DNA from: Candidatus Vampirococcus lugosii
Lineage (GTDB): Bacteria; Patescibacteriota; Gracilibacteria; Absconditabacterales; Absconditicoccaceae
Reading direction: 5' to 3'
Length of the DNA stretch: 18,515 bases
NCBI RefSeq assembly: GCF_018420025.1
Contig: NZ_JAEDAM010000101.1
Location: 1 to 18,515 of the forward strand
A model generated the notes under the pieces. It saw only the letters and a program-made list of their open reading frames with translations. It did not search any database and was not told where the DNA came from. The position numbers and the translations under genes were made by a program. Shown here piece by piece: positions 1,872 to 18,412 of this stretch (the first letter of the stretch is position 1; the number at the start of each line of letters is the position of its first letter).

Positions 1872-1918
1872 TCTAATATTATTTAATTATTTAAATCTTT
1901 ATTTTTTTATAAAAAAAT

Positions 1919-2953
1919 CTAAAAATCCCAAGTTCATTTCATACTACTAGATTGAGAATAATTAGTTACCGTAGTTTCAAAAAAGTTTGCTTTTTCGCTA
2001 TTTTGATCTTGTATTCTTTCCAAATGTTTATAAGGATTTTTTGTTGCATCTGGATATAGTGGTTTAATTCATAGACTTTCTAATCTCTGATTTGCAAGAT
2101 ATTTTGTATATCATATTATATTCTCGTCTGCCATTCATATTATTTTATTGTTTAGTATATGTTTGGACCATTCTATTTCTTGATTTACCGCTGTATCCAT
2201 CATTTTCAACAATAACTGTTCATCATAAATATCAGGGAATTCATTTTTTATTTCTTTTATAATATTAGCAAATATTACTACATGTGTTTCTTCATCTCTA
2301 CGAATATAATTAATCATTCTATCGCTTGCCAACATTTTATTATGATCTGCGAGAGTATCAAAAAAAGCAAATCAATTATAAAAATATATACTTTCCAAAA
2401 GCCAATTTGCTACTATACTTCTAAATAAATTTTGGTCATTAGGTTCATTAACAAAATCTTGATATATTTGTCATATAAATTTATTTCTTTCCAACAAATG
2501 TTTGTCTTCTCTTCGGAAATAAAGAATTTTTTCTCTTTTATTAGCTGATACTACAGTTTCCAATATTGTTTGATATGATTGAGAATGTATTGCTTCTTGA
2601 AAAGCCTGTATACTCAAAATTAAATTAACTTCAGGAGAGGTAATATAATCATTAATATTTGGTAAATTCATAGTTTGTATACTATCAAGAAAAGTCAAAA
2701 AAGAAATAATTCAATCATAAGCTTTTCTTTCATCATCATTTAATACTTCATCATATTCAACAGCATCTTTATTTAATCAAGAAACTTTTTCAGGTATCCA
2801 AAAATTTCCAAGCATTACTTTATACATTCATTTAGCCCAAGAATATTTTACATTATTTAAGTTAAATAATCAGGTTGTATTTCAATGTATTATTGTTCTA
2901 TCATCTATATCATCTCTTCAATCTGGATTAAATATTAAGTTTTTTTCTATCAT
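1919..2953 (-). CDS. nrdB: class I ribonucleotide reductase small (beta, R2) subunit
   Basis: ATG 2953..2951, TAG 1921..1919, 344 aa. Motifs: HGNTTGLFNLNNVKYSWAKGMY, NFWIPEKV, LDSIQT, AFQEAIHSQSY, ESIYFYNGFAFF, IRRDEETHV; ends WDF. Track ORFs 2135..2335 and 2471..2698 are in-frame fragments of this gene, split by TGA codons. Confidence 0.9.
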
Positions 2954-3453
2954 AATTTATTTACTATATTATAAAACTTTTCTGTTCTTTCTTCAACAGT
3001 TCAAGTAAGAGTATAATAATCTGGATAAAATATTTCTAATAAATCAACTATTCTATTGTCAATCTCTTTTTGAAATTCAATTCATTCAAATCTAACTCAA
3101 TCATTTTCTAACTCAAATTCAATAGGAATATAAAAAATTGCATCATATCTTTTTTTCAAATTTGCCACTTTTTCAAGAAAATCATAACAATATAATCATT
3201 CAGAATAAGCAAGTATATCATATATACTTCTATCTGATATAAAGTTTTTTGCTTTTTTCTCTTGTATTAGTTGTTGTATAAAAACATTATGTTGAAAATT
3301 TGATTTGTCTATCGGTTCCATATTTTTAGGATTACCCATAATTTCAATTAATTCTCTTGCTATTTCATTTATTTTTGTATAATTTTCTAATTCTAATTTT
3401 TCCAAAAGATTAGTTTTACCCACTCAATGAGCACCTGATATAGCTATTTTCAT
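2947..3453 (-). CDS. P-loop ATPase/kinase-like protein (AAA_28 / NadR C-terminal-like family)
   Basis: ATG 3453..3451, TAG 2949..2947, 168 aa. Walker A is ISGAHGVGKT, with the middle Gly encoded by TGA (3424..3426). Later motifs: FISDRSIYDILAY and YDAIFYIP. The 3' end overlaps the nrdB ATG (TTATGATAG). Confidence 0.7.
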
Positions 3454-3490
3454 ATTTAAATATACATTAAATAAATAAATTTAAATTATT

Positions 3491-4492
3491 TTATTTACTA
3501 TTTTTAACACCAAAAATATAAGTTAAAGAAGTTGCAAAAAATATAGAAGAGAAAGTACCAGCAATAACTCATATCATTAATGTAAATGAAAACAACTGTA
3601 TAACTCAACCTCAAAATATAAACATACTTATCAAAACTAATAAAGTGGAAAAGGATGTTGCCAAAGATCTTCTCATAGTTTGCCATATACTTTTATCAAA
3701 AATTTCTACATAATCAATATTATTATCTTTAATTTCTGATTTATTAATTTTAACTGTTTGTCAATTATCTTTTTCCAATTTTTTTTCTTTAGTATATGAT
3801 ATATTTTCTCTTATTCTATCAAATATTATAATAGTATCATTTATACTATATCACATAATAGTAAGTATAGAAACTATAAATATTAAATCAACTTGTATAG
3901 CACTATTTAGAAACATAAATATTCAATATGCTCATGCAGGAATCAATACATCAAAAAGCAATGTAAACATAGTAACTAATGCCAATAATCAAGGTGAAAG
4001 ATATTCTCTTATTCAAGAAAATGCAAATAACATATAAATTCAAATAAACAACAAACCAAACAGTATAGCAGTAATAGCTGCTTTTTTCATCCAATCTCAT
4101 ATACTAGGACCTATTATAGCATTTTCTAAAATATCATCTCAACTTGAAATATGTCAATTATCAATCAAATAATCTTTAGTTAAACTCGAGAGTAAATCAA
4201 CACTTTTATCATCAGATATATCTAATTCCAATATCAACGATGGATATCATTTTTTTTCTCAAATATAAACTCAAGGAGAATCAAATCAATTATCTACAAG
4301 CAATTTAGAAATTCATTCATCAACTCACTCCAAATTTTGAGATTCTACATCCAATATTAATTCCATTCATCATGTAAACTGTATTGAAAGTCTAAGATTA
4401 GAAAAAAACAATATTAATGAAATTAACATTAAAACAACACCAGACACTATCCAAAACATAGCATTTTTAATAACTGAAAACTTAATATCCAT
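3491..4492 (-). CDS. secF: protein-export membrane protein SecF
   Basis: ATG 4492..4490, TAA 3493..3491, 333 aa. Motifs: IQFTGGMEL, IIGPSIGDW, MGYSINDTIIIFDRIREN, RRSLATSFSTLL. Several conserved Gly are TGA. About 40 aa are inserted after the IREN motif. Confidence 0.85.
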
Positions 4493-4510
4493 AGTAAAAT
4501 TAAATTAGTA

Positions 4511-5251
4511 TTAAATTAAATCATTTAAAATTTGTATTTTTTTGTAAGCATTTTTTGCAGCTTCTTCATTAGACATCTTTTTTTTAGTTCAATATCACTC
4601 ACCAAATATTTCTCAATTTATATAAACAATACACTTATAATTTATAATATTTCATTTTTCATCAAATTCATGTTCATAATTTTCATAATAAGGAACATCT
4701 TTATATAACTTTTGAGAATATTCTTGAACCATAGTTTTATAACTTTTAACATTAGCAGATTTAATATTTTCTATTTTTGAAAAAATTTTATCTTTAACAA
4801 AAGATTCTGCCATATCAGCTCATATATCCAAATAAATATATCAAATCAATGCTTCCAAAGTATCAGACAAAATTGAATCTTTATTCCTTCATCAAGTTTT
4901 TTCTTCACCATAACCGAGGAAAACCATTTTATCCAAGAATATATCTCTTGCAACTTCTGCCAACATTTCTTCTCTTACTAAAGCAATTTTATATAATGTT
5001 AGTTTTGATTCAGGAACATTTTCAAAATATAAATAAAGCATTTTTGCTATCAAACAACCCAAAATAGAATCTCATAAAAATTCTAATCTTTCATTATCAG
5101 GTATAGTATAAGGCAAATCAGAAACATAAGATTTATGAAAAAATGAAATCATCATAAGCTCCTCATTTACAATTAATGACTTATCAATTCAATTCTTTGA
5201 AAGATAATCTTTATATGATGAAATTAATCATTTTGCTTTCTCCGACAACAT
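4511..5251 (-). CDS. rnc: ribonuclease III
   Basis: ATG 5251..5249, TAA 4513..4511, 246 aa. The signature is NERLEFLGDSIL (Gly = TGA at 5072..5074), followed by GGRNKDSILSDTLEALIGYIYLD and a C-terminal dsRBD-like segment. Confidence 0.9.
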
Positions 5252-5277
5252 ATTCAATAAAAAATTAAATATTAAAA

Positions 5278-5811
5278 TTAACTTATTATTTTATGTCAAA
5301 TTCAATTTATCAATTTATAACTATTATTATCACCATAAATTTTTGCCAACATAATCATTTCATTTAAAATAACATTTTTTGGTGTATTAATTAAATTTTT
5401 TTCAGTAAATCATAAAATAAATATTATTTTATCCACCATATCCATACTTGAAAATTCAAAAGTTTCAATATTTTCATTTATTAATTTTTCCAATTGTTCC
5501 AAACAAGTAGAAAAATTTAAAATCATAATAGATATATAATCAAAATCTAAATTTATTTCATAATTTCAAAAAAACTGATTATGTAAATATGAAATATCCA
5601 TATCCAAATTTGAAAAAGAACAAATTTCAGCAATATCTCTTCTTAATTCAATCAAATCTTTATCTGACATATTTTCATAATTAACTATTTTATCAACTTT
5701 TAATATATCATTAAAAAGAATATCTTCATTTGAAAGATATTCTGTAAAAAATTTTTGATAAAAATACAAAAAAACAATTTTCCTAGAAAGAATTCTTGAC
5801 TTTATATTCAT
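5278..5811 (-). CDS. nusB: transcription antitermination factor NusB-like
   Basis: ATG 5811..5809, TAA 5280..5278, 177 aa. The C-terminal part, MVDKIIFILGFTEKNLINTPKNVILNEMIMLAKIYGDNNSYKLINGIGHKI, matches the NusB core pattern (..tP..V.inE.i.lAk.y......k..NgvL.ki). The N-terminal half is divergent. Confidence 0.65.
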
Positions 5812-5841
5812 TAATTTAATTAATTATATTAATATACAAAA

Positions 5842-6069
5842 CTACTCTTCTATTATAGTCTCTTTACTTTTAGTTTTAATAGTAAGGATTTGTTTTCATG
5901 CATAAAATCAACAATGAGGACAAACTCTATGAGAAAGTTTTAAAGTATCACAATTATCACATTTAACTGTTGTAGCTTTATTCAACAACTTCTTTATAGA
6001 ATTAGTCTGCCAAACACTATGTCTATTTTTTTTCTTTGATATAGAAACTTTTTTCTTTGGTACTGCCAT
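5842..6069 (-). CDS. rpmF: 50S ribosomal protein L32
   Basis: ATG 6069..6067, TAG 5844..5842, 75 aa: MAVPKKKVSISKKKNRHSVWQ...CDNC...HRVCPHCGFYAGKQI. Both Gly in CPHCGFYAG are TGA codons. Confidence 0.9.
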
Positions 6070-6099
6070 TTAATAAATAATATTAATCTTATAAAAATA

Positions 6100-6378
6100 C
6101 TAATTTTCTACAATATCTACAAAAGTCTTTAGATATTTTTTTCAATCAAACCTCTCAACTTTTTTCTTTCTAAAAGAAACTTTACCATCAATTTTTGCAT
6201 GAACAGTAAAATCGTTAGTAATATAAACATTTTTTCAAGCTTTATATTTATCTCATTTTTGTCTTATAATTACATTTCCTGCTTTTGCAACTTGTCATCA
6301 AAACAATTTGACTCACCTATATTTAGGATTAGAATCTCTAAGATTTTTTGCACTTCATGCCGCTTTTTTGGTAGCCAT
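6100..6378 (-). CDS. rpmA: 50S ribosomal protein L27
   Basis: ATG 6378..6376, TAG 6102..6100, 92 aa: [51 protein letters not shown].... It aligns residue for residue with the bacterial L27 N-terminus. Six TGA codons all fall on conserved Gly, including the tandem TGA TGA at 6295..6300 (the FGG motif). Confidence 0.95.
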
Positions 6379-6563
6379 TTAAATTTTAATTTTTATAATA
6401 TAAAATATGTTATATATCGATTATGTATAATTATTTTTTTAAATTTTTCAAGACAAATTTTCTTTTTTATGATCACAAGATTAAATTATTATGAATAAAG
6501 TTTGTATTATTCAAAAACTTATTGATAAAAAAATCAATTCATTACCAATAATTGTTTATTTCC

Positions 6564-6598
6564 AAAAAAAACTGTAAACAACTCTACTATTTCTTACA
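6564..6598 (-). repeat. 35-bp element, copy B (inverted relative to copy A at 17959..17993)
   Basis: The minus strand reads TGTAAGAAATAGTAGAGTTGTTTACAGTTTTTTTT. This matches 33 of 35 positions of 17959..17993 on the plus strand. It lies 55 nt 3' of the stop of the 6653..6829 gene, in the same orientation. Confidence 0.85.
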
Positions 6599-6652
6599 TA
6601 TTAAATTATTGAAATAACAAAACACAAATACAATATAATTTATAAAAAATAT

Positions 6653-6829
6653 TTATTTATCTTTTTTATCTTTCATAACATATAAAGGTATTTGTGATAA
6701 TATTATTCAAATTGTCAGTCATATAAAACCAGCTTTAAGTATATTATCTTCAACAAAAATAATATAAGAAACAATTGAACCAAAAAATCATACACTTCAT
6801 AATATTTTAGATAATAATTCTTTACTCAT
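6653..6829 (-). CDS. small hypothetical membrane protein (58 aa, two hydrophobic segments)
   Basis: ATG 6829..6827, TAA 6655..6653: MSKELLSKILGSVGFFGSIVSYIIFVEDNILKAGFIGLTIGIILSQIPLYVMKDKKDK. It is open only if TGA=Gly. No family was recognised. Confidence 0.5.
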
Positions 6830-6869
6830 AATAATAATTAATTAATTTTATAAAATATAATATTATTTT

Positions 6870-8354
6870 TTAATAATCAAGTTTATGATAAACTATATAT
6901 GTATCTTTATAATCTTTTACAAAGTATCATTGTTCACTTAATTTATTTCTAAATTCATCTGCTTTTTTGTAATCTCTTTCTAATTTAGCTTTTCGTCTTT
7001 CTTGAGCAATTTGAGTTATAAAGTAAGGAATAGGCATTTTATCTAAATTTTCTTTTTTGTTTATCAAATCTTTAAACAAACCAAATTTAAAAATATTTAA
7101 ATCAAACCAAGCAAATAAATTTAATGATTCAACATTTAATTTATCAACATCTTTATTAAGAATACTTAATAATCTAGGAGTATTTAGATCATCCAATAAA
7201 CAATTCAAAATGTTTTTTAAAAATATTTTTGCTTCTTTAGTTTGTAAATTTTTCTCTATTTCTTTAATATCTCAAGTAGACATTTGTACTGAAGTTGAAC
7301 GAGGATTTGCCCATAATTTATTTACCAAATTTCTTTTAGTAATATATGCTTTATGAATTGCATCCCAATTAAATTTTAAAGAATTTCTATATTGAGCAGT
7401 AAAATAAAAATATCTTAAATCATATACTGTATATCATTTTTTTTCCAAATCTGGTATTGATAATGTGTCTCAAGAAGATTTAGAAAGTTTTTTCCCATCA
7501 AAATTTAAAAATTGTGAATGCATCCAATATTTTACCCATGGTTTATCACTAACAAAAGAACATTCACTTTGAGCTATTTCATTAGTATGATGAGTTGTTA
7601 TATGATCTATTCATCAAGTATGTATATCAAAATTTTTTCATAAAATAGCTTTTGACATTGCAGAACATTCTATATGCCATCAAGGAAATCACAATCACCA
7701 AGGACTATTTCGTTCCATATGTCTTTTTTCTCATCTTTTGGAAAATTTCCAAAGAGCAAAATCTGTAATATTTTTTTTATTATCATTAGAAATTCTAGCT
7801 CAAGATTCTATTCATAAAATATGTTTTTCATAATTTTCTCACATAAGTTTACCATAATCATCAATTTTGGAAGTGTCCATATACATTCAATCATTATTAA
7901 TTTTGTATACAAAACCTTTTTCTTCCAAAGATTTTATAAGATCAATTTGTTCTTGAATATAATCTGTTGCTTTTGGAAAAAAATCAAAATTTAATTCTAA
8001 CTTATTAATATAATTTATAAAATTTTTTTCATATTTTTTGGCAATATCCCAAGCAGTAAGTCATTCTCTAATAGCTCATTTTTCCATTTTATCTTGTCAA
8101 GAGTCAGCATCATCAGTAAGATGTCAAACATCTGTAATATTAACAACATGTTTCAAAGGGTAATTTAATATATTTCTTATTATATCTCATAATAATCATG
8201 CAAAAACAAAAGCTCTTAAATTTCAAAAATGAGGATCAGAATATACTGTAGGACCACAAGTATATATTCATACAAAATCTTTTTTTCATTCATCAAAAAA
8301 CGGAATAAATTTTTCTTTTTCTCTAGTTAATGTATTGTATATGTACAAATTCAT
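6870..8354 (-). CDS. cysS: cysteine--tRNA ligase
   Basis: ATG 8354..8352, TAA 6872..6870, 494 aa. Motifs: [19 protein letters not shown] (HIGH-type motif, Gly = TGA), [24 protein letters not shown]-terminal [17 protein letters not shown]. Track ORF 6927..7208 is an in-frame fragment of this gene. Confidence 0.9.
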
Positions 8355-8599
8355 ATTATAAAAAATACTTAGATAAGTAAATTACTTGTATTATATTAAA
8401 ATATATAAAATATTCAAGTTTTTTATTATTTATTTTACAATAAAAAAGTAAATAATCTAGTTTATTATTCTAATAAGTTTTTCAGTATATAATTTAAAGA
8501 TATAACATTGTTCATTAAAAATTAAAAACAATATTGTTATACTAACAATTTTATTTTTTATGACATTTTAAAATTGCTATCACAAAAAACAAAAAAAAC

Positions 8600-8627
8600 T
8601 TGACTTATATATTATTTTGTTTATAAT
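8600..8627 (+). promoter_or_regulatory. near-consensus sigma70-type promoter
   Basis: TTGACT at 8600..8605, a 16-nt spacer, then TATAAT at 8622..8627. This is the best -35/-10 pair I could find in the window. Confidence 0.6.
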
Positions 8628-8662
8628 AACATTTCCTTGTCTATCCTAGTTAGGAGGTCAAA

Positions 8663-8806
8663 ATGACTGAAGAAGTAGTGTTAAAATGCCCTGATGGTAT
8701 TACAAGGCGATTTTTTGTCCAAAAAGAGGGTGTTATATCTCCCAAATTTGCTATCTATGAAAGAGCATTTTTTTGGAAACAAAAAAATCGGAGAAACAAG
8801 AAATAG
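8663..8806 (+). CDS. candidate 47-aa basic small protein
   Basis: AGGAGG at 8652..8657 lies 5 nt before ATG 8663; TAG at 8804..8806. Sequence: MTEEVVLKCPDGITRRFFVQKEGVISPKFAIYERAFFWKQKNRRNKK. There are no TGA codons and no family was recognised. Coding status is uncertain. Confidence 0.4.
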   Translation: MTEEVVLKCPDGITRRFFVQKEGVISPKFAIYERAFFWKQKNRRNKK

Positions 8807-8865
8807 AAAGTCGGTCCCAGATGTTATCTCTATGAGATACAATAATTGACTTCTATTTCTATTTA

Positions 8866-8893
8866 CCAAGGATTATATATCCTTGGTTTTTTT
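8866..8893 (+). terminator. rho-independent terminator
   Basis: CCAAGGAT (8866..8873), loop TATAT, ATCCTTGG (8879..8886), followed by T7 (8887..8893). Confidence 0.8.
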
Positions 8894-8930
8894 GTATTTT
8901 AATATATAATATATATTTAATAAACTTATA

Positions 8931-9218
8931 TTAAAAAACAGCTTGTAAAACAACTTTTCAATCAAGATTAGCTTTAACAAATGTATTACAAGTTGTAAAT
9001 GATTCTCAATTTGAAACAAAATTATTTCAATTAGTATCAATTAAAAACTCTGATCATTTTATCACAAAACAACTACAAATTCAACAAGTTCAATTCATAC
9101 ATGAAAAAGGCATATCAAATCATGAATTAATTATTTGTTTTAATATATTTTCTTTATCATTTGCTTCAAATGTTTTCATATAATCTCCAAAATTATCTAA
9201 TATATATATCTGAATCAT
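8931..9218 (-). CDS. 2Fe-2S ferredoxin (plant-type fold)
   Basis: ATG 9218..9216, TAA 8933..8931, 95 aa. The motif MPFSCMNGTCGICSCFVIKG fits C-x4-C-x2-C, with the conserved Gly residues encoded by TGA. A later FTTC supplies the fourth Cys. Confidence 0.75.
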
Positions 9219-9251
9219 TTTAATTATTAAATATTTAAATAAAAAATATAA

Positions 9252-9707
9252 TTATATTAATAAATTCATAAGATCTTTATTTTTAGGACTTATTAATATT
9301 TTTTTTCAATCAAACATATTTATTCTATAAATATTATTTAATGAAGTAGTAAACATAACATCTCAAGTAATAAAATTTACTCTAATTCATAATCAATAAT
9401 AAAAAGGAACTTTTCCTATATAATCAATTTTTTCTATATCTTTTTTTTCCAATAAATATTTTCTTTTTCAAGGAGTAATTATTGTAATTCAATTATTATC
9501 TATTTCATATTTTAGATTATTTACAAGTCTTATAATAAAAAAAACACTAACTCAAGATATAATTAATACTATAAAATATAAAATATCATAATTTCACATA
9601 AAATATGCAAATACAGAAAAGTTTAATAAAAAAATAAAAATAATTCAATTAAAAATAATCAAAAATTTAATTCAAAAATCTTTATATCAATAAGTAATAT
9701 TTGACAT
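9252..9707 (-). CDS. hypothetical membrane protein (two N-terminal TM segments plus a bacterial PH-like C-terminal part)
   Basis: ATG 9707..9705, TAA 9254..9252, 151 aa: MSNITYGYKDFGIKFLIIFNGIIFIFLLNFSVFAYFMGNYDILYFIVLIISGVSVFFII..YEIDNNGITIITPGKRKYLLEKKDIEKIDY... The PH-like assignment rests only on the pattern. Confidence 0.5.
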
Positions 9708-9724
9708 ATTATATCATTAATTTA

Positions 9725-10780
9725 TTAAAAATTAAATTGATAAAAAATCATAACTAAAGCAATCAATGAAAGAACTCATTGAATAAGCCATAATTTCATA
9801 ACTATAGTATATTCAGCATTTCATTTATATTCTAATAAATGATGAAATGGTGCTATAGCAAATAGTTTTTTCTTAAAAATTTTTTTCCAAAATATCTGTA
9901 AAAAAGAAGTAGACAATTCTACCCAAAATATCAAAAACAAAAACATAAAAGGGATTATTATACCAACTCTAATATCTAATAAATAAATTAAAGAAGAGAT
10001 TAATCATCATAGTGCAAGTGCACCACTATCTCACATAAATATTTTTGCTGGATTGATATTAAACCACAAAAAAGCTAATAAACTACCCAAAACTATAGCA
10101 ATAACAGTAGTTGCCAAATACCAACCATAAAAAAAAGTAATAATTCAAAGAACAGCTAAAATCATAATACAAAGTCAACCTACTAATCAATCCAAACCAT
10201 CAGTAATATTTATTGCATTAACTACAGCTATTGTAAAAATAAAAGTAAAAATTGAATAAAAAAATCAAATATCTACACTTCAAGTAAAAGGCCATAAATT
10301 TATTGAAGTAATTCATAATCTAATATAAAACCAATAACTGATAAATGCAGAAAATAAAAACATCCAAACAAGTTTCATTTTAGCAGTAAGTCATTTTATC
10401 TTACCTATTCATTTGATATTTAAATAATCATCTATAAGTCATAGTATTCACATACTAAAAAAAGCAAAAAGTATTATATATGTTTCTTGTCTTGTAACTA
10501 AAGAAAAATTTATAAAATCAAGATATTGTAATATATAAGAAAACAAAACTAATAATAAAACTATAAAAAGCACCAATCATCATCCCATAGTTGGTGTACC
10601 TATTTTATGTGAATGTAATTTATTAAAAATAATTGCCTTACCTCATCAAGTTCAATCTTCACGAAGATTTTTACCAGCCTTTATATAAGATAATAAATAA
10701 ATATAAAAAGGGTACAAAATTAAACTTATAAAAAAAGCAAACATTAAATAAAGCAATATACTATCAAGTTTCAATAACAT
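9725..10780 (-). CDS. mraY: phospho-N-acetylmuramoyl-pentapeptide transferase
   Basis: ATG 10780..10778, TAA 9727..9725, 351 aa. Motifs: GTPTMGGGL, LIDDYLNIKG, NAINITDGLDGLVGG, MGDSGALALGG, APFHHLLEYKG. Many of the conserved Gly are TGA. Confidence 0.9.
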
Positions 10781-10892
10781 TTAAAAAAATAATTTAATTA
10801 AAAAACATTTTCATATATTTAATGATTTTAAAAATAAAATCAATTCATATTATTTGATAAAATTTAATAAATATAAAAAAGTTCAAAAAATA

Positions 10893-11888
10893 CTATATAT
10901 CAAAAAATCAATTATTAGTTTCTTCTTTTTTAGTATTATTTGATAAATTTATAAGATCATTTATATCATAATTAAATTCTTTATTATCAATAAATATTTT
11001 ATTATGTTTCAAAAAATATAATAAAACTCATAAAGTCATTTTTACATCATTTTTACAATATAATTTTACTTTATTGTATGCATTTTGGTCTCAAGATTTT
11101 ATATATTCTTTTAAGTATTGTTCTCATTCCAATCAAGATTCCAAAGTTTTTCATATAGACAATAAACTTTTACTTACTGCATTAAGTCATATTCTTTTTC
11201 ATGTAAGTCTTCGTATAAATAAAAATAAATCTATACTTTTTTCATTTAAATCATTTATTTTTTCATCTCAATAATCTGTATTATAAATACTAACAGGATT
11301 ATCAAAATAAATACTATTATATCACACTATCCATCAATCAAAACTTAACATAAAATCAACAAATTTTGTAATACTTTTTCTATCTACTAATCTATATTTT
11401 ACAGATTTTAAATGATCTTGATTTGAAATTACAGTATAAGCTATCATAAATTTCATATTTTTTAAATCATTTATATTTCATATAGTTTCAATATCATATA
11501 CCAAATAAGGTTTATCTTTTATAGTTTTATATTTTCATTGTTTAAATTCTTCAAATAGAGTTTGAGAAATAGTTTTATTTTCTTTTATTAGTTTATTTAC
11601 TTTTTTTTGACTTTTTAATTGAGAATGAAAATTATTTATTTCATCTTTATCCATACTTATTTGTATTTTTTCTTTTTCATCACACAAAATATATCATTCT
11701 CAATTTTTTTCTATTTTGAACACTGGTCAATTTCATTCAAAAAAATAAACACAATCACCATATTTAGTACTATCTTTCAAAAACTCTTTCAAATAATTAT
11801 ATTTATTTTTTAAATATAAATTTTGTAAATTTTTTATAAATCAAGTTTTAACTTCAAATAATTGTTCATAAGTAAATTTTTTATACAT
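10893..11888 (-). CDS. RNase H-like / DEDD-type 3'-5' exonuclease domain protein (PolB-exonuclease-like, YprB-type)
   Basis: ATG 11888..11886, TAG 10895..10893, 331 aa. Motifs: LVYDIETIG (Exo I), VGYNSIYFDNPV (Exo II), LYCKNDVKMT (Exo III). The first ~125 aa are unassigned. Confidence 0.65.
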
Positions 11889-11948
11889 TATTTTTTTAAC
11901 TAAAATAAAAAACTTTTAATTAAAACTAAAATATTTAAAAAATATTTT

Positions 11949-12926
11949 CTAAAAAACAAATCCTACTTTTTTATAAATATCTTTTATTTTATCATTAGCT
12001 ATATTTTCTACTTTACTATTTCAATTTTTAAGAATTTTTTGTACTTCTTCATCAGATATATTTTCTTTTTTTTCTTTGATTGGATTTGTAAAATTTATTA
12101 TTTTCTCATACAAAAACTCTTTAATTTCTTTGAAAGATAATCAACCTTGTATATATCAATCACGAATTTTTTTGTCTTCTTCAAAATTTAAAAATAATTT
12201 CAAAATATTGTAAACATTACACTCATCAGGATTTTTTGGTTCATTAACTCATAAGGACATAGTAGGAATTGATTTAACTTTTTTTAACAAAAGATTATTT
12301 TCATCAAAAAGTCAAATATAATTATTATAAGATTTTGACATTTTTCTTCAGTCAATACCAGTAATTGTTGCCAAATTTTCAACTATTTTTGCTTGTGGAA
12401 GTTTGAAAGTATCACCAAATAAATTATTAAATTTACCAGCAATATCTCTTGCATATTCTACATGTTGTTTTTGATCTTTACCAACTGGAACATAATCAAC
12501 ATCATAAAGCAAAATATCGGAAGCCATAAGTATAGGATAACAAAAAGTTCCAACTGTTGTTTTTTCTTCTTTATCTTTTGCCAAAGCATCTTTGTAAGCA
12601 TGCATTCTTTTCATAAATCCAACATTAGTAATACAAGACAAAACCCAATTTAATTCAGCATGTGCAGAAATTAGTGCAGGATTATAAATATATGTCTTAT
12701 CTGGATTTATTCAACAAGCTAAATAAGTTTTGATAGCACTTAATGAATTTTCTTTTATAAAATTTCAATCATGAATAGCAGTTAAACTATGCATATTTGC
12801 CAAAAACATAAATGTTTCATATTCTCAAATTTCTTGAAAATCAATAATTTGTTTGATAGATGCAAAATAATTTCATATATGTAAATTATCAGAAGTAGGT
12901 TTAATTCAAGTAAGAACTCTTTTCAT
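11949..12926 (-). CDS. trpS: tryptophan--tRNA ligase
   Basis: ATG 12926..12924, TAG 11951..11949, 325 aa. Motifs: LTGIKPTSDNLHIGNY (Gly = TGA at 12873..12875), VPVGKDQKQHVE, GRKMSKS. Track ORF 12348..12641 is an in-frame fragment of this gene. Confidence 0.9.
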
Positions 12927-12954
12927 ATCAAAAATATATTATAAATTAAAATAA

Positions 12955-14736
12955 TTATTTAATTAATTTTTCCAATTCATCAATCATATCTTGTATAACT
13001 TTTAATCAATCTTTATAAAATTTATCTTGAGAAATATCAATATCTATAGTTTGTAAAAGTTCATAAGGTGTAAGACTTCCTCATGCTCTCAAAATATTTT
13101 TATATTTGGGAATGAAAGATTTTCCTTCATTTTGATATTGTTTGTACAATGCAAATGATAATATATTACCAAAAGAATATGAATAACAATAAAAAGGACT
13201 AGCAAAAATATGTGGGATAGCAGACCAAGTAGTTTCTTGTTCAGCAGGAACATCGTATTCTACAGTTTCTCATGAAAGTTCAATTTGACATTCTCTCCAT
13301 ATTTTATTAAAATCTTTATAAGTTAAATTATTACCCTCATAAAAACTTTCATGGACTTTTTTTTCAAAATTAACATATTGAATTTGTCTGAAAATAGTTG
13401 CAAAAGAATTTTCTATTTGTTTTGCCAAAAACGAAACTTTTTCATTATCATTTAAAGTTAATTTAATATAATCAGCGAATATAAGTTCATTAAAAATAGA
13501 AGCTGTTTCTGCCAAACAAAGTCAAGTATCATAAACTTTTCTTGGTTGAGATTGAGAAAAATATCAATGAATAGCATGCCCAAATTCATGAGCAATAGTA
13601 CTTACATTATCTAATGTATCAGAATAATTTAAGAAAACAAAACTTTTATGATCTTTATCATAACTTGCAAAAGCTCATCACCTTTTTCATTTTTGAGGAA
13701 AAACATCTACTTGACCATTAACAAAAAGATCTTTTGTAAATTGAGCAAATTCTTGATCAAAATTTTTCATACAATCCAAAAGAAGTCAAATTCATTCTTC
13801 AAACTCAATTTTTTTATCTTCATCAGATACAGGAGCAAAAACATCGTAATACATAAGTTTTTGTTGCCCTAATAATTTAGCTTTTATTTTATTATATCTT
13901 TGATAAAGAAGGAATGAATTTGTAATTTGTTCCAAAAGTTTTTGAACAATTTCATTAGAAATTTCTTCTGAATTATTTCTAGGTCACATTACTCAATCAA
14001 ATCATCTAATTTTAACATCAACAATCCAATCTTTTACAACACTTGCATAAACATTTCATAAAGAAATTTGTATTTTATTATCCAAATATTTCTCTCTAAT
14101 TGCATCAAATGCTTTTTTTCTTGTCTCAGGATTAGCAGAAAGTCTTAAATTTCTAACTTGATCTTCAGTAAGTTCTTTTTCTTCGCCATCTATATTTAAT
14201 ATAAAAGAAAAACTTCAAGTAAGTTCTTCATGTAAATTTGATAAAACATTAGAATTCGCATTTGATTTTAAATTTAAAGCAAATTCTGTTTTTTCATCCA
14301 ACAAATATTTTACAGAATTTGCTTTTTGTAAAAACCAATTTTTATAATTTTGTAATTCTTCTTTTTTTGAAAATTCTATCATTTTTTCATATCAAATTTC
14401 TTTTATTTCTTGATCAACAAATATTAAATCATTACTAAGATTAGTAACAAAATCATCAAATTCTTGATTTTTTTTCAATACATCTTGATTTTGAGTATCT
14501 AATGCTGATAAAAAATGTAAATATCTTCAAATATTTACAGCAAGATAAGAAATCTTATCATCTAAATCAAACATTTCCAAAAATCATTGAAAATCTAATT
14601 TTGATATATTTCATTTAAATTTTGAAATAAAATTTCTAACCATATTTTCTACTTCTTGCATATCATTATTTATTTTTGGATCATTAATATCTTTATAATA
14701 CTGTTCCAAATCCCATTTAGTTTGTATTTTTTGCAT
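12955..14736 (-). CDS. pepF: oligoendopeptidase F (M3B metallopeptidase)
   Basis: ATG 14736..14734, TAA 12957..12955, 593 aa. Motifs: KRGGAFASY (GG = TGA TGA), zinc motif IAHEFGHAIH, LAETASIFNE. Track ORF 13270..13515 is an in-frame fragment of this gene. Confidence 0.85.
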
Positions 14737-14840
14737 ATATTTTATATATTTATATTAAATAAATTATATCTTATATATACATAATTTATCAATAAATTCA
14801 AACCCAAATTATTAAAATAACAAAAAAATACTTTATAAAC

Positions 14841-14968
14841 TAATATTTTTTATAAAGTATTTTCTTATATTAAGGAATTTATTTAAATAATTTTTTATTA
14901 TCTATAGCTCAAATAATAATTTCAAGAATCTTCCAATATTTCTCTAAATTTACTTGAATCTGAATCTA
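14841..14968. repeat. direct repeat, copy 1 (3' end of the 14898..15446 gene plus its downstream region)
   Basis: By eye it aligns with 15531..15650 at roughly 90% identity with one 8-nt indel. The first 34 nt are identical, and a 45-nt block is identical (14911..14955 = 15593..15637). Confidence 0.9.
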
Positions 14969-15446
14969 TACCTTTTATCATATTATGTACTTCATCAATA
15001 TTATTAGCATTAATATATCAATTATCTCAAGTATTTTCAAGTTCTGCTATCAAAGCATATCATCAATTTTCTGTTCAACGATTATTAAGTGAAATATAAT
15101 AATAATTTTTTCAATCCAAAGGATCACTAGGTAAACTATCCATATATCTAGGAACAAGATAATCTTGTATTTCACTAAGTTCAACCATTCAATCACTTTC
15201 TGGATAACTTCATCTTCATCTACCAGAATAATAAATTGATAAAGCCATTGAAGTTTGTCATAAATGTGATAATCTCGCACTATCTCTTTCTTCTGAAAGA
15301 GCTTGTTCATTTTGTTCATTATCAAGATCTGAATTAGATTGTTCATTATCAAGATTTTGATTATCTTCATTTTCATCAACTTCTCATAAACAACCTCCAA
15401 AAACTGGAACAAATCAGATTAATAATAACAATAATAATTTTTTCAT
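14898..15446 (-). CDS. putative lipoprotein with type IV pilin / pseudopilin-like globular domain
   Basis: ATG 15446..15444, TAA 14900..14898, 182 aa with TGA=Gly. The N-terminus MKKLLLLLLIGFVPVFGGC has a signal peptide and a lipobox-like Cys. An acidic D/E/N/Q linker follows. Then come RDSARLSHLGQTSMALSIYYSGRGRGSYPES...YLVPRYMDSLPSDP...YYYISL...GGYALIAELE, the pattern of the pilin head domain that normally follows the hydrophobic N-terminal helix. Confidence 0.6.
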
Positions 15447-15530
15447 ACAGTTCCTTTAAAATATAAATGTATATACTATATAAATAATATTATTATTTTT
15501 TCAAGTTTAATTATAATAAAATTATTTCAA

Positions 15531-15650
15531 TAATATTTTTTATAAAGTATTTTCTTATATTAAGAAATTCATTTAGTTATTATCTAACTATTAAATAATA
15601 ATTTCAAGAATCTTCCAATATTTCTCTAAATTTACTTAAATCTGAACCTA
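15531..15650. repeat. direct repeat, copy 2 (orphan copy of the pilin-like gene's 3' end)
   Basis: See copy 1. On the minus strand it still reads ...GSDLSKFREILEDSGNYYLIVR*, compared with ...DSDSSKFREILEDSGNYYLSYR* in the intact gene. Confidence 0.9.
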
Positions 15651-16345
15651 ATTTTTTTGATGAAAATTCATGATTTGAATGAGAAGAAAATAAACAACCT
15701 AATTGGTGAAAAGAATGTAAAAGTAGTGATAATCAAAAACCTATTTGTTCATCTATATATAAACCAGTATGTGGGCAAACTTCTATATCATGTCCATCTT
15801 GAACTTTATGTCAAAAACCATTACCTAAAACATATTCTAATTCTTGTTTAGCAGAAAATGATAATGCTGAAATTTTGTATGAATGAGCTTGTAAAGATGA
15901 TAAAGAAATGTTTAATTGGAAATATTGAACAGAAGAAATATATAATGATATAAAAAAATATTTTCCAAATGCAACAAAGGAAAAGGTAGAAAGTATATCA
16001 TATCAAGTATATAATAAATACTTTTCAAAATCTAATTTAAGAGATATTCATAATAAATCAGTTGTATGACTTTATAAAGATTTTGTATGAAGTATTTTGA
16101 GTGTATTAAAAAAATGAGAAATAAAAGAAGAATCGTTAGTATATGCTAGAAATGAGTTGTATACTGCATTAGAGCAATTATGACTAAATTATACAAAACA
16201 AGAAGTAGAAAAAGTTGCAAAAGTAGTATATCATTATTTTAATAAAAATACAAAAATTAATCTTACATTAGATGATATATATAATAAAGATAAAAATTAT
16301 TGGTTAGATTTTGTATGAAGTGTAGCAACTGTATTAAAAAAATAA
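15602..16345 (+). CDS. Kazal-like Cys-rich domain protein with two ~75-aa C-terminal repeats; the open frame lacks a canonical start and signal peptide (probably 5'-truncated)
   Basis: The frame is open for 247 codons (TGA=Gly) from 15602 to TAA 16343..16345. It contains ...CSSIYKPVCGQTSISCPSGTLCQKPLPKTYSNSCLAENDNAEILYEGAC... (about 15746..15892). Two repeats each end in DFVGS..(S/T)VLKK; at the DNA level GATTTTGTATGAAGT occurs at 16079 and 16307. The first in-frame TTG is at 15875 and the first in-frame ATG at 15908, both downstream of the Cys-rich module. Confidence 0.6.
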
Positions 16346-16372
16346 TATAACTAATTAATATTTATTAAAAAA

Positions 16373-16407
16373 GTGAAATAGAACTTAGTTCTTTATTTCG
16401 CTTTTTT
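16373..16407 (+). terminator. rho-independent terminator
   Basis: GTGAAATAGAAC, loop TTA, GTTCTTTATTTCGC (imperfect stem with one bulge), followed by T6 at 16402..16407. It begins 28 nt after the stop at 16345. Confidence 0.7.
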
Positions 16408-16554
16408 ATTGTATATAAATTAGTTTTTATTGTTTGAGTTGTAATAATCTTATGTTAATTTAATATTGTTATATATTATAAATAAAATTTCTTGAAAAAT
16501 GAAATTATTTGTTTATAAGTTAATTCATTTTTGAGAAAAAATAATTTATTTATA

Positions 16555-16568
16555 ATATATATATATAT
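16555..16568. repeat. (AT)7 microsatellite running into the ATG of the 16567 gene
   Basis: Direct reading: atatatatatatat at 16555..16568. The last AT belongs to the start codon at 16567..16569. Confidence 0.9.
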
Positions 16569-16872
16569 GGAAAATAATAATAATTTTGATACATTTTATG
16601 AAATAAGAGAGGATGAAGAAACTGTTGATAGAATAAAAAGTAATATATTAGGTCTATGATTTATGTCAGATGATAATTTTGTTATTTCTTATTTGGACAA
16701 AACAAATGAAGAACAATATTATTATATAGATAATTATAAAGCATATATAGTTGCATATATTCCTGAACTAGATTTATCTATAAAATGAGTTCATTTAGAA
16801 TGAGCTACTTATCATAAATGAAATGTTTTTGATGTTAATACAGATTTAGAAAAAGTAACAAATATACTTTAA
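16567..16872 (+). CDS. hypothetical protein (101 aa)
   Basis: ATG 16567, TAA 16870..16872: MENNNNFDTFYEIREDEETVDRIKSNILGLGFMSDDNFVISYLDKTNEEQYYYIDNYKAYIVAYIPELDLSIKGVHLEGATYHKGNVFDV.... It is open only if TGA=Gly. The stop is 14 nt before the next gene. No family was recognised. Confidence 0.5.
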
Positions 16873-16886
16873 AAATTAAAAGTTAA

Positions 16887-17948
16887 ATGAAAATAGCTTT
16901 TGTACATGATTGGATAATTACCATTTGATGAGCTGAGAAAGTCTTTATAGATTTAATAAAAGAAGAAAAATATTCTCAATGAGAAATATTCTGTGTTTTT
17001 AGTGATAAAAATTTTTTATCAATAAATTGACAAGATATAAAAATAAATTCTGTTATAAAAAATAATTTTTTGATAAATAAAATATGATATCGTAATTTGA
17101 TGCCAATTTTTCCTATATTAAATTATTTTTTATCAAAAAAAATAAAAAAATATAATCCTGATAAATTACTTATATCATCTTTTGCAATAGCAAAAAATAT
17201 AAAATCTAAAGTATACAAAAAAATATATTTACATAGTCCTATGCAATATATACGAGATTCTTATGAAGAATATTTAGAAAAATTATTTTGAATAAAAAAA
17301 CTAATTTTTAAAATTAGTTCAAAATTTTTGAGAAAATGGGATAAAAAATATTTTCAATTTGATGAAGTGTATTTTAATAGTAAATATACAGAAAAATTAG
17401 CACAAAAAATATATTGAATTAAATGAATTGTTAAATACCCAAAAATAAATAATGAAATAGTAAATACTAATATAGTAAATCAAAAAGATAATTATTATAT
17501 TTATATTTGAAGATTAGTAAGGTTTTCCAAAGAATTAGATAAAATAATAGAACTATTTAATAATTTAGATGATAATTTATTAATTGTTTGAGCTTGACCA
17601 GACGAATTATTATTGAAATCAAAAGTTAAAAAATCAAATATAATTTTTTTGTGAGAAATAAATAATCTACAAAAAAAAATAAAATTATTAAAAAAATCAA
17701 AATGATTAATAAATATAACAAAAGAAAGTTTTGGAATAGTTACAGCAGAAAGTTTAAGTTTATGAGTGCCAGTGTTTGCTTACAATTGTTGAGCAAGTCC
17801 TGAATTATTAGATTTAAGATCTGGTGTTTTGATTCATAAAAAAAATCAATATGAACTTAAAAATAAATTTGAAGAATTTAAAAAAATAAAGTTTGATTAT
17901 CAAGAAATTAAAAATAATTTCTTATCAAAATTGGATAAGTATTTATAA
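16887..17948 (+). CDS. glycosyltransferase, GT-B fold, family 4-like
   Basis: ATG 16887, TAA 17946..17948, 353 aa. Motifs: MKIAFVHDWIITIGGAEKV, LLIVGAGPDE, ESFGIVTAESLSLGVPVFAYNCGASPELL. Track ORF 17097..17291 is an in-frame fragment of this gene. Confidence 0.8.
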
Positions 17949-17958
17949 TTTTTTTTAT

Positions 17959-17993
17959 TGTAAGAAATAGTAGCATTGTTTACAGTTTTTTTT
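17959..17993 (+). repeat. 35-bp element, copy A; candidate terminal inverted repeat of the adjacent decayed IS
   Basis: TGTAAGAAATAGTAGCATTGTTTACAGTTTTTTTT. It starts with TG, ends 2 nt before the transposase-relic stop (17996..17998), and begins 10 nt after the glycosyltransferase stop. Confidence 0.8.
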
Positions 17994-18288: not shown

Positions 18289-18382
18289 TAGTCTCTGATT
18301 TTTATGTTCTTTTTTTTGAGTACATGTTATATGTATATTCATATTTTGTTGTTTTACCTCATCTTTGTAGAACAAAATTTCT

Positions 18383-18407: not shown

Positions 18408-18412
18408 GGAAG

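What the first reader, a model, noticed from the sequence alone, without database searches (positions are those of the whole stretch)
14841..15660. A ~120-bp duplicate of the pilin-like gene's 3' end abuts the start-less Kazal-like ORF: rearrangement scar or silent cassette
The segment 14841..14968 comprises the last ~70 nt of the 14898..15446 gene plus ~57 nt downstream of it. It recurs as a direct repeat at 15531..15650, at about 90% identity with one 8-nt indel and a 45-nt identical core.

Copy 2 still encodes ...SKFREILEDSGNYYL(IV)R* on the minus strand, but no credible gene body precedes it. Instead, the convergent plus-strand Kazal-like frame opens inside copy 2 (15602) and continues directly into an acidic linker.

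The simplest reading is a deletion between a second, tandem pilin-like paralog and the divergently transcribed Kazal-like gene. That deletion would have removed both promoters, most of the paralog, and the signal peptide of the Kazal-like protein.

Alternatively, copy 2 could be a retained homology block that permits recombination with the expressed gene, comparable in principle to silent pilin cassettes.
Basis: partly seen in the sequence, partly recalled or inferred. Interest (0 to 1): 0.65.

Follow-up and report, generated by a model that had tools for sequence, protein, structure and literature searches.

The report
Orphan gene-end copy beside truncated gene
A 120-base leftover copy of the tail of a surface-lipoprotein gene sits against a neighbouring gene that has lost its start; it is most likely an ordinary rearrangement scar in a fast-changing surface-protein locus of an uncultured, recoded (UGA = glycine) bacterium.

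Summary
The repeat is real. Copy 1 (14841-14968) and copy 2 (15531-15650) share exact 34-nt and 45-nt blocks, with none expected by chance, and nothing else in the window is comparable. The genome reads TGA as glycine (code 25).

Copy 1 is the last 71 nt of a lipoprotein gene (14898-15446, minus strand) plus 57 nt of its 3' flank. Its left edge lies in the loop of the gene's terminator hairpin. Copy 2 keeps 25 codons, a stop and one hairpin arm, and nothing else of that gene survives.

Codon usage switches strand at 15650|15651. From there a plus-strand ORF runs to 16345. It has no ATG, GTG or TTG for its first 91 codons and no signal peptide.

An independent k=31 assembly of a sample holding the same strain ends at 14870, as two copies predict. 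A sister strain (99.65% identical) assembles through copy 1, so it lacks this copy 2. Its contigs stop at 15537 and 16208. Of the 25 differences between the two strains, 19 fall inside the lipoprotein gene.

Best reading: a scar of duplication and deletion in a strain-variable locus. A silent cassette, a DGR and an assembly artefact are all unlikely. The labels 'pilin-like' and 'Kazal-like' are unproven.

The parts
14898..15446 (-). Intact gene A: a 182-aa predicted lipoprotein (leader MKKLLLLLLIGFVPVFGGC, an acidic Asp/Glu/Asn-rich linker, then a globular part of unknown family). It is hypervariable between strains.
   Evidence: Code-25 translation. The protein is identical to P0001. NCBIfam gives only weak matches to lipoprotein leaders and Pfam gives none. 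Of 25 differences between the strains, 19 lie in this gene.
14841..14968 (-). Repeat copy 1: the last 71 nt of gene A, stop included, plus 57 nt of its 3' flank.
   Evidence: It is identical in the sister strain.
14820..14868 (-). Intrinsic-terminator-like hairpin downstream of gene A: a 20-bp stem and a 9-nt loop at 14840-14848, followed by a U-rich tract. The left edge of the repeat (14841) lies in the loop.
   Evidence: RNA fold gives -20 kcal/mol, z = -3.7, with 1 of 200 shuffles folding as well. Inverted repeat I20.
15447..15530 (.). The 84-nt 5' flank of gene A (the surrounding intergenic stretch 15447-15601 is about 10% GC). It presumably holds the promoter and has an AAGGA 8 nt before the ATG. 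It is the unique spacer between gene A and copy 2.
   Evidence: The promoter-like match at 15504-15475 is not above chance.
15531..15650 (-). Repeat copy 2: an orphan 3' fragment with one terminator arm, a diverged 3' UTR, a stop at 15580-15582 and the last codons (...LGSDLSKFREILEDSGNYYLIVR*; the BLASTP match to gene A covers 25 residues and starts 3 nt beyond the DNA repeat). It is absent in window-type form from the sister strain.
   Evidence: It does not form a hairpin (z = -0.3). Supported independently by the L013 contig end. Sister contig L001 runs unbroken through copy 1.
15650..15651 (.). Junction where homology to gene A ends and native plus-strand coding sequence begins.
   Evidence: Codon-usage log-odds: for 15602-15649, minus 0.78 against plus 0.36; for 15650-15907, plus 0.58 against minus 0.26. 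BLASTP homology to gene A does not extend upstream of residue 139 of the 163-codon minus-strand ORF, about 3 nt beyond the junction.
15602..16345 (+). Start-less ORF of 247 codons. The first 16 codons are the antisense of copy 2. Then come an acidic linker, a Cys-rich module and two helical domains. The deposited annotation calls only the last 156 aa, from TTG 15875 (P0003).
   Evidence: There is no canonical start before 15875, whereas all 16 genes whose start codon was correctly placed use ATG after a leader that is almost entirely A/T. Only 6 of 1429 off-frame open runs reach 91 codons.
15716..15895 (+). Cys-rich 'Kazal-like' module (ORF residues 39-98; seven Cys; the canonical fifth Kazal Cys is missing and there are two extra Cys in an insert).
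   Evidence: Pfam Kazal_1 E = 0.18. Collinear weak matches to PEC-60 (E = 1) and leech tryptase inhibitor (E = 1.5). This is motif-level evidence only.
15911..16342 (+). Two tandem copies of an all-helical domain that starts FNWKYG (15911-16123 and 16142-16342). ATG 15908 sits exactly at the domain boundary.
   Evidence: Both halves match the single domain of P0126 (E = 2e-11 and 8e-7; P0126 found). Model pLDDT 71, all helical. No PDB fold match.
15538..16207 (.). Segment missing from the sister-strain assembly. The sister's flanking contigs end at 15537 and start at 16208.
   Evidence: L001 = window 15537..4897. L003 = window 16208..17990. The segment's GC content (22.7%) is ordinary, so an AT-driven coverage gap is unlikely.

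Best explanation
Copy 2 is a non-functional remnant. It is the 3' end (about 25 codons, the stop, the 3' UTR and one terminator arm) of a second, already diverged copy of the lipoprotein gene that once lay directly upstream of the present gene. The 690-nt spacing equals 3' flank + gene + 5' flank, and the left edge lies in the terminator loop. Together these are the geometry of a tandem-duplication junction, possibly formed at a 7-nt microhomology (TAATATT).

A later deletion or replacement removed the rest of that copy. It also removed whatever lay between it and the neighbouring plus-strand gene, and that gene's start codon and export signal. This fused the remnant to a 5'-truncated ORF.

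The Cys-rich module of that ORF can no longer be translated from a normal start or exported. At most, a shorter cytoplasmic product of the two helical domains could be made from ATG 15908 or TTG 15875.

The whole arrangement is one allele of a strain-variable surface-protein islet between pepF and a glycosyltransferase gene. The closest strain has a different structure there and a recombinant, 3.4%-diverged lipoprotein gene.

Shown: the repeat, the orphan state of copy 2, the strand switch at the junction, the missing start, the loss of the terminator fold, and the difference between strains. Inferred: the order of events (duplication, then deletion), the lost signal peptide, and the lack of function.
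For: The repeat is exact in two blocks and unique in the window. Homology to the intact protein covers only its last 25 residues (E = 2e-9), and no other remnant of either gene exists in the window.

The copy-1 flank forms a 20-bp terminator hairpin (z = -3.7). Copy 2 keeps one arm and does not fold (z = -0.3). The repeat edge at 14841 lies in the 14840-14848 loop. The copy-to-copy period is 690 nt, which equals 57 + 549 + 84.

Codon-usage log-odds switch strand at 15650|15651. All 16 genes whose start codon was correctly placed begin with ATG after a leader that is almost entirely A/T, and the ORF has no start for 91 codons. That 91-codon open stretch is still coding-like: only 0.4% of off-frame runs are as long, and its codon score of 0.58 equals that of gene A. 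So the truncation is recent, or the frame is still under selection.

The C-terminal part has a real relative, P0126.

An independent assembly supports two copies in the window's own strain, because L013 ends at 14870 with a 30-nt dual match. The sister strain assembles straight through copy 1 and stops at 15537 and 16208. In a k=31 graph where every 31-mer is distinct (PMC12424806), that means it has no window-type copy 2.

The locus is variable. Of 25 differences between the strains, 19 are in gene A (P = 3e-18), with pS 0.034 and pN 0.036 against 0.05% in the flanks. The right flank is 0.45% diverged. More distant relatives have different genes on both sides of pepF and upstream of the glycosyltransferase gene.
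Against: No genome with the proposed ancestral arrangement (two tandem lipoprotein genes, or an intact ORF with a start and signal peptide) was found. The order of events is therefore untested.

The two long exact blocks (34 and 45 nt) sit beside a heavily diverged 36-nt patch. That is odd for a neutrally decaying remnant. It needs either a recent deletion in an old paralog pair, gene conversion between the copies, or some constraint on copy 2.

The ORF has stayed open for 247 codons, so it may still be used.

The right junction (15650|15651) has no assembler-independent confirmation.

The only relative of the ORF (P0126) also begins at a Cys-rich module without its own signal peptide. Lack of a leader may therefore not prove truncation.
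Confidence: 0.65

Rival explanations
1. Copy 2 is a kept homology block that takes part in recombination-driven variation of the lipoprotein. It could act as one arm for cassette-like allele exchange, or as a direct repeat that lets the 690-bp gene-plus-promoter unit be deleted or re-amplified.
For: Gene A is about 60-fold more diverged between near-identical strains than its flanks. Synonymous and nonsynonymous changes are equally raised, which points to imported sequence rather than point mutation. Its 5' end and its 3' end (the repeated part) are invariant between strains. The 34- and 45-nt exact blocks exceed typical minimal lengths for RecA-type recombination (general knowledge) and look homogenised next to a diverged patch. 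The locus differs structurally between strains.
Against: Copy 2 contains none of the variable region (14987-15378), so it cannot donate the observed variation. There is only one partial copy, and no other copy in the window. No paralog was found among 5.8 billion proteins. The window has no recombinase or other dedicated machinery. The sister strain varies without having this copy 2.
Confidence: 0.12
2. The plus-strand ORF is still a working gene. Copy 2 now serves as its 5' leader or promoter region, with translation from a non-canonical or internal start (for example ATG 15908, giving the two helical domains).
For: The frame is open for 247 codons with gene-like codon usage. ATG 15908 lies exactly at the FNWKYG domain boundary. 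The relative P0126 also lacks its own signal peptide. The deposited annotation calls a 156-aa product.
Against: No canonical start precedes the Cys-rich module, and all 16 genes whose start codon was correctly placed use ATG after a leader that is almost entirely A/T, which neither internal candidate has. A disulfide-rich module without an export signal is unlikely to fold (general knowledge). The first 16 codons are antisense of another gene's tail.
Confidence: 0.12
3. The arrangement is an assembly artefact: a chimeric join or a mis-placed strain variant in a metagenome-assembled contig.
For: The window comes from a metagenome-assembled genome (source fields). At least two strains exist in sibling samples. 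No Logan contig spans 14870-16175 in the sample holding the window's strain. The right junction is unconfirmed.
Against: The copies differ by substitutions and indels, so this is not a simple assembler duplication. A different assembler's graph branches exactly where a second copy of the 34-nt block predicts. A mis-join inside the 45-nt core would still leave 13 nt of gene-A homology, with 2 copy-specific changes, abutting the ORF. The abutment therefore does not depend on how the core was traversed.
Confidence: 0.07
4. The pair is the variable repeat and template repeat of a diversity-generating retroelement acting on the 3' end of a surface protein gene.
For: There is a roughly 120-bp imperfect direct repeat, one copy at the 3' end of a variable surface-protein gene and the other non-coding nearby. 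Such elements are common in this bacterial group (general knowledge).
Against: The mismatches are A>G 2, C>T 2, G>A 1 and T>C 1, plus three indels, so they are not adenine-specific. The repeat runs 57 nt past the stop codon. Variation between strains lies outside the repeat. The 18.5-kb window has no reverse transcriptase.
Confidence: 0.01

Closest known systems
Gene relics left by tandem duplication followed by partial deletion (ordinary bacterial pseudogene fragments)
   Same: A partial 3' copy with its stop and part of its terminator, in direct orientation, one gene-unit upstream of the intact gene. The neighbouring gene is truncated at the breakpoint. The arrangement is present in one strain and absent from its closest relative.
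   Different: The two long exact blocks beside a diverged patch are more mosaic than simple decay predicts. The truncated neighbour is still fully open.
Silent pilin cassettes (Neisseria pilE/pilS) and similar surface-antigen cassette systems (Borrelia vls, Mycoplasma MgPa repeats)
   Same: A promoterless partial copy of a variable surface-protein gene lies close to the expressed gene and shares a conserved 3' block.
   Different: Copy 2 holds only the conserved tail and no variable segment. It is a single copy and is absent from a sister strain that still varies. No associated recombination signals were found. The protein is not shown to be a pilin.
Diversity-generating retroelement VR/TR pairs
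   Same: The size, identity level and 3'-terminal position of the repeat.
   Different: No adenine-specific substitutions, no reverse transcriptase, indels present, and the repeat crosses the stop codon.
Kazal-type serine protease inhibitor domains (Pfam PF00050)
   Same: The local motifs C-x7-C with 'PVCG' and 'TYSNSC...G-C' occur in the right order.
   Different: All matches fall below significance. The fifth canonical Cys is missing, there are two extra Cys in an insert, and there is no signal peptide in the present gene.
Type IV pilin / type II secretion pseudopilin globular domains
   Same: A short motif (RDSAR-LS-L-Q---AL-IY----G-YP) recalls the start of pseudopilin globular domains. This is from memory and was not tested against a profile that hits.
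   Different: The protein has a lipoprotein leader in place of a prepilin leader and hydrophobic helix. No profile, PDB or structure support was found.

Membership tests
Silent-cassette antigenic variation (pilE/pilS type) | The silent copy contains the variable region of the expressed gene. | tested here: not met
   Copy 2 matches only the last 25 codons. All differences between strains lie at 14987-15378, outside the repeat.
Silent-cassette antigenic variation (pilE/pilS type) | Multiple partial copies exist in the genome. | tested here: inconclusive
   There are only two copies of the core in the 18.5-kb window, and no paralogous protein among 5.8 billion. The rest of the genome could not be searched.
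Silent-cassette antigenic variation (pilE/pilS type) | The expressed gene varies by import of sequence tracts between conserved ends. | tested here: inconclusive
   Variation is clustered, with pS roughly equal to pN at about 3.4% and both ends invariant. This fits imported tracts, but the donor is unknown and could simply be another strain.
Diversity-generating retroelement | Differences between the repeats occur at template adenines. | tested here: not met
   Mixed transitions in both directions plus indels.
Diversity-generating retroelement | A reverse transcriptase gene lies nearby. | tested here: not met
   None of the window's proteins matches one.
Kazal-type inhibitor domain (PF00050) | A significant match to the family profile. 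| tested here: not met
   E = 0.18, 12.3 bits against a cut-off of 21. PDB Kazal chains match only at E = 1-1.9.
Kazal-type inhibitor domain (PF00050) | Six conserved Cys forming the 1-5, 2-4 and 3-6 disulfides. | tested here: not met
   The Cys expected 3-4 residues after 'NSC' is absent (the sequence reads LAEN). Two extra Cys lie in an insert (sequence).
Kazal-type inhibitor domain (PF00050) | Secreted, that is, it has an export signal. | tested here: not met
   There is no start codon or hydrophobic leader in frame.
Type IV pilin / pseudopilin | A prepilin leader with a hydrophobic N-terminal helix. | tested here: not met
   The N-terminus is a lipoprotein-type leader ending FGGC, followed by an acidic linker. 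NCBIfam gives only weak matches to lipoprotein leaders.
Type IV pilin / pseudopilin | A profile or structural match of the globular domain. | tested here: not met
   No hit in Pfam at E <= 1, NCBIfam or PDB sequences. The structure model is unusable at pLDDT 41.
Bacterial lipoprotein | A basic N-terminus, a hydrophobic stretch and a lipobox ending in Cys. | tested here: met
   MKKLLLLLLIGFVPVFGGC is conserved in both strains. Weak matches to lipoprotein leaders. No dedicated predictor was available.
Tandem-duplication relic | Direct orientation with a spacing of one gene unit, and a junction joining the unit's end to its beginning. | tested here: met
   The period is 690 nt = 57 + 549 + 84. 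Copy 2 starts immediately after gene A's 5' flank.
Tandem-duplication relic | The ancestral intact duplicate can be seen in a relative. | tested here: inconclusive
   The only close strain lacks copy 2 and is unassembled across 15538-16207. More distant relatives share no synteny.

The most novel reading that the evidence does not exclude
The lipoprotein gene, with its invariant signal-peptide end and invariant C-terminal/terminator end, is a recombination-driven surface-variation locus of a UGA=Gly Patescibacterium. Under this reading the orphan 3' block upstream is a maintained homology arm, kept identical by gene conversion, that promotes exchange, loss or re-amplification of the gene unit. 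That would be a minimal cassette-type system in an episymbiotic lineage where none is known.
Probability: 0.1. Interest if true: 0.6.

Novelty: new member of a known kind. Interest (0 to 1): 0.27.

Why it matters
As a scar, it mainly matters for annotation. The deposited 156-aa gene call is the tail of a truncated gene. The 'pilin' and 'Kazal' labels should not be propagated. The locus must be read with genetic code 25.

The more useful by-product is the locus itself. Two nearly identical strains of an uncultured, recoded bacterium differ almost only in one surface-lipoprotein gene and in the structure next to it. That marks this islet as a likely site of interaction with a host or with phage. 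It is also a convenient marker for telling strains apart in the sibling samples SRR13241708 and SRR13241709.

Tried and rejected
Searches that found nothing useful:
- Relatives of the lipoprotein in species-representative genomes. The tool keyed on the low-complexity acidic linker and found none.
- A pepF-anchored synteny search. The one hit (L002, pepF 77% identical) has different genes on both sides.
- A codon-degenerate DNA pattern for the C-terminal peptide. It had 0 hits in viral and JGI metagenome contigs.
- A family search for the ORF in JGI contigs.
- Orthologs of the glycosyltransferase at about 60% identity. They have a giant divergent gene upstream and share no domains with the window proteins.
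- tblastn of both proteins against phage records.

Structure and fold:
- The lipoprotein model had pLDDT 41, so no fold search was run.
- The fold search of the helical domains found no match.

Ideas tested and rejected:
- An inversion model. It was rejected because no flanking inverted repeats exist at 15537/16208 and no displaced remnant of either gene is in the window.
- Similarity between the ORF's first native codons and the post-lipobox DNA of gene A. It is not significant, since 116 of 300 shuffles score as well.
- The 163-codon antisense ORF as a real gene. That antisense frame is naturally open, with a 141-codon run elsewhere in the window, and the ORF has no ATG and a lower codon score.
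- A simple frameshift giving the ORF a start. ATG 15660 in the +1 frame encodes no leader.
- Promoter scans, which are uninformative here (21 sites found against 25.7 expected).

- The small internal ORF is not on record.

One error was corrected along the way. mis-framed two genes and was redone.
Full report
GENETIC CODE AND SETTING

The window is 21% GC. Under the standard bacterial code it has only short ORFs. Reading TGA as sense raises total ORF length about five-fold. TGA falls at conserved glycines: HFGNLR in CysRS, HIGNY and GIDGRKMSKS in TrpRS, and DGLDGLVGG in MraY. This is therefore genetic code 25, as used by Gracilibacteria/Absconditabacteria-type Patescibacteria.

The locus lies between pepF (12955-14736, minus strand) and a family-1 glycosyltransferase gene (16887-17948, plus strand). 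The surrounding genes are housekeeping genes. The window has no tRNA gene and no Rfam match.

THE OBSERVATION

The repeat is confirmed. Copy 1 is 14841-14968 and copy 2 is 15531-15650. They share exact blocks of 34 nt (14841-14874 = 15531-15564) and 45 nt (14911-14955 = 15593-15637). The 34-nt block and a 44-nt part of the core each occur exactly twice, with none expected by chance. The remaining columns hold 6 substitutions, an 8-nt indel and two 2-nt indels, mostly in a 36-nt patch around the stop codon. Nothing else in the window is comparable.

ANATOMY

Copy 1 is the last 71 nt of gene A (14898-15446, minus strand) plus 57 nt downstream. Gene A encodes a 182-aa protein with a lipoprotein-type leader (MKKLLLLLLIGFVPVFGGC), an acidic linker and a globular part.

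Downstream of gene A the RNA folds into a 20-bp hairpin (14820-14839 with 14849-14868, -20 kcal/mol, z = -3.7) followed by a U-rich tract. The left edge of the repeat (14841) lies in the 9-nt loop. Copy 2 therefore carries only one arm and does not fold (z = -0.3).

The start-to-start distance is 690 nt, which is exactly 57 (3' flank) + 549 (gene) + 84 (5' flank). Copy 2 thus begins where a tandem second unit would begin.

On the minus strand copy 2 reads ...KKLGSDLSKFREILEDSGNYYLIVR*. It is homologous to gene A over 25 residues only (E = 2e-9). Nothing further matches at protein or DNA level, and no other remnant exists in the window.

THE ADJOINING ORF

The plus-strand frame opens at 15602 and runs to 16345, a total of 247 codons. 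Codon-usage log-odds, trained on the window's confident genes, favour the minus strand in 15602-15649 (0.78 against 0.36). They favour the plus strand from 15650 on (0.58 against 0.26, then 0.39 against -0.13). The first 16 codons are therefore antisense of the gene-A-like tail, and native coding sequence begins at about 15651.

There is no ATG, GTG or TTG before TTG 15875. All 16 genes whose start codon was correctly placed begin with ATG after a leader that is almost entirely A/T. Only 0.4% of off-frame open runs in this window reach 91 codons. The start-less part is therefore real coding sequence, or was until recently.

The ORF contains three elements:
- An acidic linker.
- A Cys-rich module with weak, collinear matches to Kazal inhibitors. 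Pfam gives E = 0.18, and PEC-60 and leech tryptase inhibitor give E of about 1.
- Two tandem copies of an all-helical domain starting FNWKYG. Its only credible relative among 1.84 billion representatives is P0126.

The helical model (pLDDT 71) has no PDB fold match. The deposited annotation calls only the last 156 aa (P0003). The 163-codon antisense ORF is not exceptional, because that antisense frame is naturally open in this genome.

COMPARATIVE EVIDENCE

The lipoprotein family is extremely rare. Among 5.8 billion proteins it has one relative, P0002 at 83% identity. No relative of the ORF was found by word-based search. None was found in GTDB genomes, JGI metagenomes, viral contigs or phage records.

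The one more distant genome recovered has different genes on both sides of pepF. Orthologs of the glycosyltransferase have a giant divergent gene upstream instead.

Two sibling samples are informative.

SRR13241708 carries a sister strain. Its 14.9-kb contig equals window 15537..652 at 99.65% identity or better. A 1.8-kb contig equals window 16208..17990 at 99.4%.

SRR13241709 carries the window's own strain. Its contigs equal window 6033..444 (100%), 14870..8079 (0 mismatches) and 16175..17938 (99.83%).

[quoted passage not shown] Two conclusions follow:
- In SRR13241709 the pepF-side contig ends exactly at 14870 (= 14840 + 30), and its last 30 nt match both copies. I predicted this signature before fetching the contig. 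It shows that the 34-nt block occurs in two contexts in those reads.
- In SRR13241708 the contig passes unbroken through both exact blocks of copy 1. The sister strain therefore has no window-type copy 2.

The sister's contigs end at 15537 and start at 16208, so the 670 nt between them differ or are heterogeneous there. The GC content of that segment is ordinary at 22.7%, which argues against a simple coverage gap. What the sister carries in that interval could not be retrieved.

A HYPERVARIABLE GENE

Of the 25 differences between the window and the sister strain over 10.6 kb, 19 lie within gene A. These are 17 substitutions and two in-frame indels, all between 14987 and 15378 (binomial P = 3e-18). 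Synonymous and nonsynonymous divergence are both about 3.4%, against 0.05% in the flanks. This points to import of a diverged allele by recombination rather than selection on new point mutations.

The signal-peptide end and the last 30 or so codons, which include the repeated part, are identical between strains. Right of the gap, divergence is 0.45%. The locus is therefore a recombination-prone, strain-variable islet.

INTERPRETATION

The best-supported reading (confidence about 0.65) is that copy 2 is the relic of a second, diverged gene-A-like unit placed by tandem duplication. A later deletion or replacement removed its body and the 5' end of the neighbouring gene.

The roughly 10% divergence of the copies contrasts with 0.05% between strains. 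Copy 2 is therefore not a recent duplicate of the present gene. The intact 247-codon frame suggests that the truncating event is recent, or that part of the ORF is still used.

The first 7 nt of copy 2 (TAATATT) are also present at the end of the sister contig. This fits a microhomology at the junction, but it is only suggestive.

The rivals rank as follows:
- Cassette-like or pop-out recombination role (0.12). The variability of gene A and the mosaic identity of the copies favour it. Against it, copy 2 holds none of the variable region, is a single copy, and is absent from a sister strain that varies anyway.
- The ORF still functions from an internal start (0.12). This is compatible with the scar reading.
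- Assembly artefact (0.07). The copies differ by substitutions and indels. A second assembler's graph branches as predicted. A mis-join inside the 45-nt core would still leave gene-A homology abutting the ORF.
- Diversity-generating retroelement (0.01). It is rejected by the mismatch spectrum, the indels and the lack of a reverse transcriptase.

LABELS

'Pilin-like' has no support from Pfam, NCBIfam, PDB sequences or a usable model. The protein is better described as a predicted surface lipoprotein of unknown family. 'Kazal-like' holds at motif level only, and the canonical fifth Cys is missing.

VERDICT

The feature is real and independently supported. It is of an ordinary kind: a gene relic beside a truncated gene, in a strain-variable surface-protein locus. 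Interest is low to moderate. The most interesting residue is the sharp hypervariability and structural polymorphism of this locus between near-identical strains of a code-25 bacterium.

Noticed in passing
whole window (e.g. 6870-8353, 9725-10780, 11949-12926): TGA is read as glycine (genetic code 25). It falls at conserved Gly positions in CysRS, TrpRS, MraY and PepF. Table-11 tools fragment every gene here.
   Followed up: yes
14987-15378 (inside gene 14898-15446, minus strand): The lipoprotein gene is hypervariable. It holds 19 of the 25 differences from a 99.65%-identical strain, including 9-nt and 6-nt in-frame indels. pS and pN are both about 3.4%, while both gene ends are invariant.
   Followed up: yes
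15538-16207, with L001 and L003: The sister-strain assembly (SRR13241708) has contig ends at window 15537 and 16208. The window-strain assembly (SRR13241709) resumes at 16175. The sequence occupying this interval in the sister strain is unknown.
   Followed up: partly
15911-16123 and 16142-16342: The C-terminal part of the start-less ORF is a tandem duplication of one helical domain (FNWKYG...). Its only relative, P0126, has a single copy of the domain.
   Followed up: partly
L004 1-841 (Logan SRR7083930); L005 (ENA ERZ27301260): The relative P0126 also starts directly at a small Cys-rich module (ICPDGSSVGRDPHNNCEFRPCP) without its own leader. It overlaps by 8 nt an upstream ORF that has a hydrophobic leader. 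This could be translational coupling or a frameshift. The same arrangement appears in two independent assemblies.
   Followed up: no
6564-6598 and 17959-17993: A 35-nt inverted repeat pair (33 of 35 complementary) lies 11.4 kb apart in two intergenic regions, each ending in a T/A run. Sister contig L003 ends inside the right-hand copy (17990). It may be a shared terminator or a small dispersed element.
   Followed up: no
22-465 (minus strand); sister contig end at 652: This ORF has only IS630-type transposase helix-turn-helix domains (HTH_23/28/29/32/33). The sister strain's contig stops 20 nt past the neighbouring PD-(D/E)XK nuclease gene, just before this ORF. The window-strain contig continues to 444.
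   Followed up: partly
18413-18463: A perfect 25-nt-arm palindrome with a 1-nt loop. The 400 nt before it (18009-18419) contain no convincing gene on either strand.
   Followed up: no
16208-17990 versus 4897-14986: Divergence from the sister strain is about nine-fold higher to the right of the locus (8 of 1783 nt) than to the left outside gene A (5 of about 10,090 nt). This suggests a recombination boundary at the locus.
   Followed up: partly
window gene starts: Nearly all genes start with ATG after a leader that is almost entirely A/T, with no Shine-Dalgarno motif. The lipoprotein gene is an exception, with AAGGA 8 nt upstream.
   Followed up: no
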